Part shown: positions 4,714 to 6,382 of the stretch, one piece after another
Layout: every line of letters begins with the position of its first letter
How positions within the stretch are numbered: position 1 is the stretch's first letter
Assembly (NCBI GenBank): GCA_963555755.3
Contig: OY820905.2
Location: 2,400,001 to 2,464,000 of the forward strand
Reading direction: 5' to 3'
Source of the DNA: Nitrospirales bacterium
Lineage (GTDB): Bacteria > Nitrospirota > Nitrospiria > Nitrospirales > UBA8639
Length of the DNA: 64,000 bases
Position numbers and translations under genes: made by a program
The notes under the pieces: generated by a model
Seen by the model: the letters and a program-made list of their open reading frames with translations, nothing else
Databases searched by the model: none
Told to the model about the DNA's origin: nothing

Positions 4714-5168
4714 AAGCTTGCTTTACATTTTGCTTGCTTGCTTTTAACATTCAAAAATACATGTGTCAATAAAAAATTTAAAGAAAGTATCTATTAAATT
4801 AACACATCTTTTGAGTTTCATTAAAAATTATATCAGAATATCTATGCAAGCACCAAAATAAGTTTGTATTTTTTCTGAGCATATAGATAAATTTTAATAC
4901 TTGCTAGAATTAATACTTGAAAGCCAATATTTAGTAGTCTGAAGAAAATGGATACTATTAGTTTGATGTAAATTTTTCCATCCTCACCCTTTTTTTGGGT
5001 TAATTCTAGAATGGTCTGTTGGAGTAATCGCCTTTGTATATAATGTAGGGTTAAGATTTTGCGTTTCCTTGTTGGGGCTGTTGAATATTTCGCGTCAATT
5101 GCCAATAAAAGCTCTGGATGAGCCAAGCATTGTCAAGGGGAGGGAATGTTCAAAAAAGCATGCCCTTG

Positions 5169-5174
5169 TATAAT
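5169..5174 (+). promoter_or_regulatory. -10 box of the circle-junction promoter (-35 TTGACT at 6360-6365)
   Basis: Joining the ends at CT gives TTGACT-N17-TATAAT. Confidence 0.8.
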
Positions 5175-5179
5175 GCAAG

Positions 5180-5400
5180 GAAGGGTTGTAGGCCAACTCA
5201 CCCGAGCTGCCTCTTGTCTGAAGAGGGCATAGCCAACGTAGGGAAAAGGCTGTACCCTCACGGTATTGTGAATCCTGGCATGATAGACCGTTTGCCCTAT
5301 GGGAATCAGCCCGTGACTCAGCGCAGGTCGTCATGCCCTTTCTCTGATGAACCCGAACGGTTGCCTGGGACACCAAGCCCGTATCAACAAGGTTGGGAGA
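5180..5400 (+). ncRNA. Putative bridge RNA of IS110 element 1 (ends approximate)
   Basis: Target guides GTTTGCCCT (5290-5298) and GACTCAG (5315-5321) within stems; donor guides ACGGTTGC (5357-5364) and ACAAG (5387-5391). Confidence 0.8.
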
Positions 5401-5407
5401 CAGAGCG

Positions 5408-6382
5408 ATGAAATCAAAATCCTCAGAATTGTTTATCGGTATCGACATTTGTAAAGCTCGATTAGACGTGGCAGACAATGCCAATTCGCTTCCATGGTCG
5501 GTAGCCAACAACGACGCCGGCATCGCCGCGCTGGTGGAGCGGCTCCACGTCCTTCACCCCACTCTCATCGTGATGGAAGCCACAGGGGGGCTGGAAACGC
5601 TTCTGTATGCGGCCTTAACCACCGCCGGGTTGCCGGCGGTCGTCATGAATCCCCGTCAGGTGCGGGACTTTGCCAAGGCCCTGGGCACCCTGGCCAAAAC
5701 CGATGCCCTGGACGCCCGAATCTTGGCTCGCTTCGGGGCGGCGATCCAGCCGGCGGTCCGGCCCATGAAAGACGCCACCACCCAGGAATTGACGGCCTTG
5801 GTGACACGGCGACGGCAGTTGCTTGCCATGCAGACGGCGGAAAAAACCCGCCTCCAGCAAGCAGCCAAATGGATCCGCAAAGATATCAACGCTCATATCG
5901 CCTCCCTGGAAAAACGGCTCCAAACAATCGAAGGTCATATTGCCGAGATTATTAAACAGACCCCCGGCTGGAAAGAGAAAGATTCGCTCCTTCGAAGTGT
6001 GCCGGGGGTGGGCAACGTCTTGTCAATGAATCTCCTCAGTAGCCTGACCGAACTCGGGACGCTCAACCGAAGAGAAATCGCCACGCTGGTGGGCGTTGCC
6101 CCCTTAAACCGCGACAGCGGAAACGTGCGCGGCAACCGAAGGGTCTGGGGAGGCCGGGCCCAAGTCCGCGCCGCCCTCTACATGGCGGCCCTGTCCGCAT
6201 CACGATTTAATCCGGTCATCAAAACATTTTATCAACGCCTGATTGCACAAGGGAAAAAACCCAAAGTGGCCCTCACCGCCTGTATGCGAAAACTTCTGGT
6301 CATTCTGAATACGATGGTCAAAACCCAAACAGCATGGAACCCAAATCAATATTCAACCCTTGACTTTAATCACGGTTGCTGA
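5408..6382 (+). CDS. IS110 DEDD recombinase, apparently intact
   Basis: GIDICK, MEATGG, KTDALDA (DEDD) and NRDSG serine motif. Confidence 0.95.

What the first reader, a model, noticed from the sequence alone, without database searches (positions are those of the whole stretch)
5165..6380. Intact IS110 element 1: readable bridge RNA targeting MITE family A
The empty target is GCATGCC-CT-GAGTC. The left end has stem ggcatga..gacc / ggtc..tcatgcc enclosing GTTTGCCCT (7/9 identical to the left target, one difference compatible with a wobble pair), an inner hairpin, and GACTCAG (exact reverse complement of CTGAGTC). The circle junction is ACGGTTG-CT-TGTAT; a second loop holds ACGGTTGC and ACAAG. 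The junction creates TTGACT-N17-TATAAT. DEDD and Ser motifs are intact. Three empty exact targets exist in the window, near 7700, 37455 and 60508.
Basis: partly seen in the sequence, partly recalled or inferred. Interest (0 to 1): 0.85.

Follow-up and report, generated by a model that had tools for sequence, protein, structure and literature searches.

The report
Bridge-RNA transposon homing on nested repeat
This is an intact, recently multiplied IS110 jumping gene of the known RNA-guided 'bridge recombinase' kind that always sits in the same short repeat, likely steered there by its bridge RNA; it is ordinary apart from borrowing its enzyme's stop codon from the DNA it lands in.

Summary
The 1,214-bp element (5165-6380, CT core) encodes an intact 324-aa DEDD/Ser recombinase related to IS621 and ISCro4. 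The genome holds 11 full and 2 truncated copies; all 12 left and all 12 right junctions lie at GCATGCC-CT-GAGTC, and 72 exact sites are empty. Across 43 distinct guide pairs from relatives, guides track targets (left 198/301 vs 111 permuted; right 196/215 vs 101), stems show compensatory changes, and the handshake base covaries. A same-genus relative with changed guides sits in a second repeat family that this element leaves empty (19 sites). Refinements: the target is a ~27-bp palindromic module nested in a subfamily of the MITE, not the MITE backbone; the effective left match is six bases next to the core. New detail: the transposase has no stop codon of its own; the target supplies it, a trait of this clade. 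Tests for a selected read-through frame or a target hairpin gate were negative. Circles and RNA expression were not shown. Verdict: new member of a known kind.

The parts
5165..6380 (+). IS110-group element, 1,214 bp with one CT core
   Evidence: identical ends in 12 left and 12 right junctions
5142..6501 (+). Host MITE copy (about 16-bp terminal inverted repeats, central hairpin) carrying the target module, split by the element
   Evidence: regex bounds 5144-6499, inverted repeat extends 2 more bases in most copies
5158..5166 (+). Left target GCATGCC plus CT core
5167..5174 (+). Right donor TGTAT overlapping the -10 box TATAAT (5169-5174)
5175..5276 (+). About 100-nt 5' part of the left end, present in this clade, much shorter in many relatives; no well-supported consensus fold
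5277..5337 (+). Predicted target-binding loop: stem 5277-5289 / 5326-5337, LTG 5290-5298, inner hairpin, RTG 5315-5321, handshake bases 5322-5323
5352..5397 (+). Predicted donor-binding loop: LDG 5357-5364, RDG 5387-5391, handshake bases 5392-5393
5408..6382 (+). Recombinase gene, 324 aa; its TGA stop (6380-6382) is the core T plus the first two bases of the target
6360..6380 (+). -35 box TTGACT (6360-6365), left donor ACGGTTG (6372-6378) and CT core, all inside the coding sequence
6381..6385 (+). Right target GAGTC
7700..7713 (+). Empty exact target in a MITE copy (7686-7834)
37455..37468 (+). Empty exact target in a MITE copy (37441-37582)
60507..60520 (+). Empty exact target in a MITE copy (60493-60658)
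18762..18774 (+). Empty site of a second repeat family, unused by this element but used by a reprogrammed same-genus relative

Best explanation
This is an intact IS110-group insertion sequence whose 13 copies all sit at one 14-bp site inside a short repeat module, likely because its left end encodes an IS621-type bridge RNA that would pair with that site and with the element's own circle junction. Inferred cycle, from the IS621 literature: excision joins the ends at CT, which would create a TTGACT-N17-TATAAT promoter; the RNA's first loop would pair with the target (TGCCCT on the left, all 7 bases on the right), the second with the donor junction; the DEDD/Ser recombinase would exchange strands at CT. 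Shown from sequence: insertion at CT-GA completes the recombinase's stop codon, and the target module rides on an abundant intergenic MITE, giving 72 free sites.
For: Pfam PF01548 + PF02371 and PDB hits ISCro4 and IS621 with catalytic residues aligned. 12 of 12 left and 12 of 12 right junctions at the same target, in MITE copies of different subtypes, 10 distinct left flanks among 11 full copies that differ by 0-40 bases. Covariation on 43 unique guide pairs with a target-blind register: LTG-LT 198/301 (permuted 110.9, max 139), RTG-RT 196/215 (100.7, max 126), LDG-LD 300/301 (282.4, max 292), donor-loop handshake base vs target position 7 41/43 (36.5; 4 of 5,000 permutations as high), short sub-terminal repeat 107/129 (90.5) (first set of 34). 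Stems: 97.8% of cells paired, 10 of 22 pairs with changes on both sides, 0/500 shuffles as high. Close contrasts: L004/L081 (85% aa) carries GTTGTTCCT/GGCTCAG and sits in GAGTTC-CT-GAGCC, a repeat with 19 empty copies in this genome that this element never occupies; L011 vs L019 differ by one RTG base and by the matching target base. The module is abundant where this guide occurs (G005 56, G011 21 exact 13-mers) and rare in the two genomes whose full-length homologs carry other guides (G002 1, G006 3).
Against: No circle junction in the contigs of the 4 runs laid and no way to see RNA level from contigs. Single-sequence folds are no better than shuffles and pair part of the donor guides; the consensus also predicts such pairs, none with a change on both sides. 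The left guide has one wobble and one true mismatch against every local target, and its perfect target occurs 0 times; IS621 tolerates mismatches poorly in E. coli screens (PMC11208160). Relatives are kin, so permutation values overstate significance.
Confidence: 0.9

Rival explanations
1. The copies spread as passengers: the MITE carrying the element was moved or duplicated as a unit, so the uniform site reflects one ancestral insertion.
For: Every copy is inside a MITE; two copies share the same left flank.
Against: Copies 1 base apart sit in different MITE variants with different flanks; one sits in another terminal-repeat subtype and others in MITEs with extra modules; this cannot explain guide-target covariation in relatives.
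Confidence: 0.04
2. Base pairing is needed but a target DNA hairpin (MITE terminal repeat pairing with the left target) acts as a second gate, as reported for ISPpu10.
For: The 20 bases upstream pair with the left target in this genome's sites (about -4.3 kcal/mol); precedent in 10.64898/2026.03.19.712850.
Against: No enrichment in occupied (10 of 12) over empty (63 of 72) sites; two occupied sites fold at only -1.0 and -1.3; only 3 of 32 tested elements (own included) had a hairpin better than 95% of upstream shuffles.
Confidence: 0.12
3. The missing stop codon is a selected control: the circle makes a 405-aa read-through protein whose translation runs through the bridge RNA and re-initiates at the ATGA overlap, so full activity or RNA folding depends on correct insertion.
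For: Stop supplied by the target in this clade (L014, L115, L001, L114, own; support 100) and separately in L147 and L044-046; the continuing frame is open across the whole left end in 12 of 12 own copies, L001, L002, L004, L114, L115 and L044-046, against 1.8% in shuffles of the own left end.
Against: L014, L147 and L197 have early stops in that frame; chance of staying open given each homolog's substitutions is 0.26-0.59; no synonymous bias (29 vs 24.8 of 94); in 65 elements with their own stop 51 of 195 frames are open, the same number as on the antisense strand.
Confidence: 0.07

Closest known systems
IS621 (E. coli; PMC11208160, PMC11208158, PMC13626964)
   Same: IS110 group with long left end; CT core; right donor TGTAT-type junction promoter; two-loop RNA with LTG, RTG, LDG, RDG; handshake bases (G/U in the donor loop against target C7); imperfect natural left guide; targets an abundant intergenic repeat. 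phmmer E 2.4e-35.
   Different: Different guides and target; target is a module nested in a MITE, not a REP; no non-coding right end, stop codon supplied by the target; left guide one base shorter after the CCG motif than in most relatives; activity untested.
ISCro4 / IS622 (PDB 9t56)
   Same: Best solved-structure hit, E 1.1e-37 over residues 8-316, catalytic residues aligned; full 7-base right guide.
   Different: Distant sequence; other host phylum and target; no data on activity in other cells.
ISPpu10 / ISPpu9 (P. putida; 10.64898/2026.03.19.712850, PMC12288879)
   Same: Multi-copy IS110 in repeats; strict right guide, left guide loose far from the core, as in this clade (position matches 8, 18, 28, 33, 35, 37, 39 of 43).
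   Different: The 5' target hairpin is conserved for ISPpu10 but not here.
ISEc21 / ISMch6 and ISEc11 / ISXne4 (PMC11187229)
   Same: Natural redirection between related elements by changed guide bases.
   Different: Here the switch is between two repeat families present in the same genomes.
ISLxc2 / ISLxx4, IS481 family (PMC2516522)
   Same: Transposase stop codon lies in the insertion site.
   Different: Unrelated DDE enzymes without guide RNA; there the site is duplicated.

Membership tests
IS110 group bridge recombinase (IS621-like) | DEDD RuvC-like domain plus C-terminal domain with conserved serine | tested here: met
   D13, E57, D99, D102, S237
IS110 group bridge recombinase (IS621-like) | Long non-coding left end, short or no right end, no long terminal or sub-terminal repeats | tested here: met
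   243-nt left end, none at right; 3-bp sub-terminal repeat 2/3 here, covarying in relatives
IS110 group bridge recombinase (IS621-like) | Scarless insertion at a short core, empty sites with one core | tested here: met
   72 empty sites with one CT; filled sites with CT at each end
IS110 group bridge recombinase (IS621-like) | Two internal loops with guides matching target and donor, covarying across orthologues | tested here: met
IS110 group bridge recombinase (IS621-like) | Handshake bases pair with the non-cognate DNA at position 7 | tested here: met
   donor loop 41/43; target loop 43/43 but invariant; cognate lock 0 of 34
IS110 group bridge recombinase (IS621-like) | Sigma-70 promoter formed across the circle junction | tested here: met
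   sequence only: TTGACT-N17-TATAAT; no -35 match in the inserted state
IS110 group bridge recombinase (IS621-like) | Circular intermediate exists | tested here: inconclusive
   no junction in contigs of 4 runs, which drop rare forms
IS110 group bridge recombinase (IS621-like) | RNA is expressed, binds the recombinase and directs recombination | not testable with these tools
   two RNA libraries hold the element as flat-depth contigs only
IS1111 group | Non-coding region downstream of the gene and 11-13 bp sub-terminal inverted repeats | tested here: not met
ISPpu10-type dual-match targeting | Conserved 5' target stem-loop across homolog targets | tested here: not met
MITE (host repeat) | Terminal inverted repeats, no coding capacity, many copies | tested here: met
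   248 copies with central hairpin, 119 of them 110-119 bp
MITE (host repeat) | Target-site duplication and an autonomous partner | tested here: inconclusive
   best duplication 37-39 of 248; no partner transposase found by a crude scan

The most novel reading that the evidence does not exclude
A bridge-recombinase clade that uses its target as a translational switch: the enzyme gets its stop codon only from a correct CT-GA insertion, while the excised circle encodes a longer isoform read through the bridge RNA and coupled back to its own start, separating circle and inserted states.
Probability: 0.07. Interest if true: 0.7.

Novelty: new member of a known kind. Interest (0 to 1): 0.33.

Why it matters
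It adds a compact, recently active bridge recombinase with a fully readable RNA, a perfect 7-base right guide and a set of natural guide/target variants, usable as an editing ortholog and as a test of how guides switch between repeat families. It shows layered parasitism: a MITE collects short palindromic modules and IS110 elements home on them. For engineering, the gene must be cloned with an added stop, and retargeting in its native form would change the enzyme's C-terminus unless the site reads CT-GA, CT-AA or CT-AG. None of this changes the known mechanism.

Tried and rejected
Rfam: no family on the element's RNA (one match at E 0.28 inside the gene). Single-sequence fold stability: not above shuffles. 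5' part of the left end: weak consensus fold, covariation term -0.08 on 8 sequences. A genomic match to the 14-bp junction at C1:735341 lies in unrelated sequence, not a tandem copy. U-rich guides as wobble-tolerant readers: 21 of 81 left mismatches are wobble-compatible, same as permuted (0.26 vs 0.25). Target hairpin gate and selected read-through frame: not supported. No guide-RNA-only derivative: 12 matches, all in element copies. My first tblastn suggested no other IS110 family; the Pfam genome search corrected this: 21 matches, 9 from other families. Reads: no circle joint in 4 of 24 listed runs; other runs remain unexamined. Literature searches for Nitrospira + MITE, IS110 + MITE + target, and IS110 + stop codon found no paper on this element, this target module or a target-supplied stop in IS110; supplements (for example the target-motif tables of PMC11208160) were not read and may list this clade. 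Earlier-finding look-ups by sequence and by words returned nothing. The tree is the quick search, not the finished one.

Full report
Observation. The cores are at 5165-5166 and 6379-6380, giving a 1,214-bp element; the guides lie at 5290 (GTTTGCCCT), 5315 (GACTCAG), 5357 (ACGGTTGC) and 5387 (ACAAG); joining the ends puts TTGACT 17 bases before TATAAT, whereas the inserted form has no -35 match. The three empty targets are at 7700, 37455 and 60507. The four guide words in order appeared in 0 of 20,000 shuffles of the left end, although single words are common by chance (TGCCCT 2,287, ACAAG 5,012). The 324-aa protein carries PF01548 and PF02371; its only PDB matches are ISCro4 and IS621, with D13, E57, D99, D102 and S237 in the catalytic positions described in PMC11208158 (passages).

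Genome. The 4.6-Mb genome (nearest named relatives of the protein are from Nitrospirota) holds 13 copies: 11 full, one missing its right end and one missing its left part. All 12 left junctions follow GCATGCC-CT and all 12 right junctions precede GAGTC; 72 exact sites are empty. The 11 full copies have intact genes, differ from this one by 0-40 bases (one has a 6-base deletion) and have 10 distinct left flanks in different MITE variants, which argues for repeated targeted insertion, not passive copying.

The target. A regex found 283 elements bounded by the terminal repeats, 248 with the central hairpin; 119 are 110-119 bp and lack the target. The target lies in a module of about 27 bp placed directly after the left terminal repeat: 52 empty and 10 occupied among the 248; 71 of 72 empty and 12 of 12 occupied sites follow such a repeat. 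The module belongs to a wider CCTGAG-N5-7-GAAGG family (182 hits, 94 inside those elements), and 18 of 63 parsed elements have a right flank of this type, many in Dehalococcoidia. So the element reads a short repeat that rides on the MITE, not the MITE backbone. An earlier scan note (e1-5205291) calls the MITE ERIC-like; I confirmed its size, terminal repeats and hairpin but did not test the ERIC likeness.

Covariation. From 106 loci, 84 were examined, 47 parsed and 34 unique guide sets kept. After adding metagenome and family loci, 204 loci were examined, 91 were full-length with both ends, 71 had unique left ends, 63 parsed and 43 unique guide pairs were kept. With a register chosen without looking at the target, left guides matched 198 of 301 positions (permuted mean 110.9, maximum 139), right guides 196 of 215 (100.7, 126), donor guides 300 of 301 (282.4, 292), the donor-loop handshake base 41 of 43 (36.5; 4 of 5,000 as high) and the 3-bp sub-terminal repeat 107 of 129 (90.5, 103). 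Left-guide matches rise towards the core (8, 18, 28, 33, 35, 37, 39 of 43), so this element's two mismatches at positions 2-3 fall where the family is loose. On 33 aligned RNAs the stems are 97.8% paired with 10 of 22 pairs changed on both sides, and the target guides are unpaired. Kinship inflates these statistics, but close contrasts agree: L004 (85% identical) has three changed left-guide bases and one changed right-guide base and sits in GAGTTC-CT-GAGCC, a second repeat with 19 empty copies here, one at window 18762, none occupied; L011 and L019 differ by one right-guide base and the matching target base. The module is common in G005 and G011, which carry this guide or its ends, and rare in G002 and G006, whose full-length homologs have other guides; four genomes, three of them fragmentary, are only a hint.

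Against. Folded alone, the RNA is no more stable than shuffles and pairs 4 donor-guide bases. Contigs of 4 runs, 2 of them RNA libraries, cover the element at flat depth and show no circle joint; contigs cannot show rare forms or RNA level. Expression, circles and activity are therefore inferred from IS621 (PMC11208160, passages; PMC13626964, abstract).

An unreported detail. The gene has no stop codon of its own: TGA 6380-6382 is the core T plus GA of the target. This holds for a clade of five (support 100, quick tree) and separately for L147 and L044-046; in most relatives the stop lies 18 bases earlier, in the -35 box. In a circle the frame would run on for 81 codons through the whole left end and stop at the ATGA overlap with the gene's start. 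I tested whether this open frame is selected and found no support: three relatives have early stops, staying open is likely given the substitutions seen (0.26-0.59 per homolog), there is no synonymous bias, and antisense frames are open as often as sense frames in relatives. Target-supplied stops are described for IS481-family elements (PMC2516522, passages); I found none for IS110. A hairpin between the MITE's terminal repeat and the left target resembles the ISPpu10 gate (10.64898/2026.03.19.712850, first part and passages) but is not enriched at occupied sites nor conserved in relatives.

Verdict. All testable defining features of the IS621-like IS110 group are met. Repeat targeting and natural reprogramming are published (PMC11208160; PMC11187229 and its preprint, passages; PMC12288879, passages). 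I also saw passages of 10.64898/2026.08.14.744561, which did not bear on the reading. No supplements were read. This is a clean new member with a useful natural series of guides and one curious side feature; interest 0.33.

Noticed in passing
window 15123-16634 (-); G000 C1:3599328 (L222) and C1:3744628: A second IS110 family (407 aa, 3 copies 78-83% alike; the window copy is frameshifted near its start). Two copies sit in short palindromic repeats, one inside a MITE, with different flanks, suggesting differing guides.
   Followed up: partly
window about 21943-22365 (+); G000 C1:193213, 563393, 2045258, 385931, 70908: Further PF01548 matches from other IS110/IS1111 families; the window one has an internal stop; three near-identical copies share a right flank.
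   Followed up: partly
G000 C1:2215825 (L223:176-270): Relic left end of a related element inserted at ACCTGTC-CT, cut off before the target loop.
   Followed up: partly
G000 C1:2149025-2150215 (L113): Most divergent copy (92%), guides unchanged, right end replaced by sequence that looks like another, decayed transposase.
   Followed up: partly
MITE copies genome-wide, e.g. window 60493-60658, 62229-62390: The MITE collects several short palindromic modules at fixed spots; a second module, GCATGCCCTCGCGGAGGCGG, occupies the same position as the target module in about 18 copies and is never invaded.
   Followed up: partly
window 5070-5140, 7615-7685: Many module-bearing MITE copies share a further ~70-bp degenerate repeat upstream, starting GTTGAATATTT.
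   Followed up: no
L088 (G002:C105): Decayed copy with the module-type target and nearly the same target loop but no donor loop, in the genome whose full-length homolog is retargeted.
   Followed up: partly
window 2546-2905 and 3637-3906: Ala/Phe-rich repetitive ORFs on + whose reverse strand would encode Lys/Ala-rich histone-like repeats.
   Followed up: no
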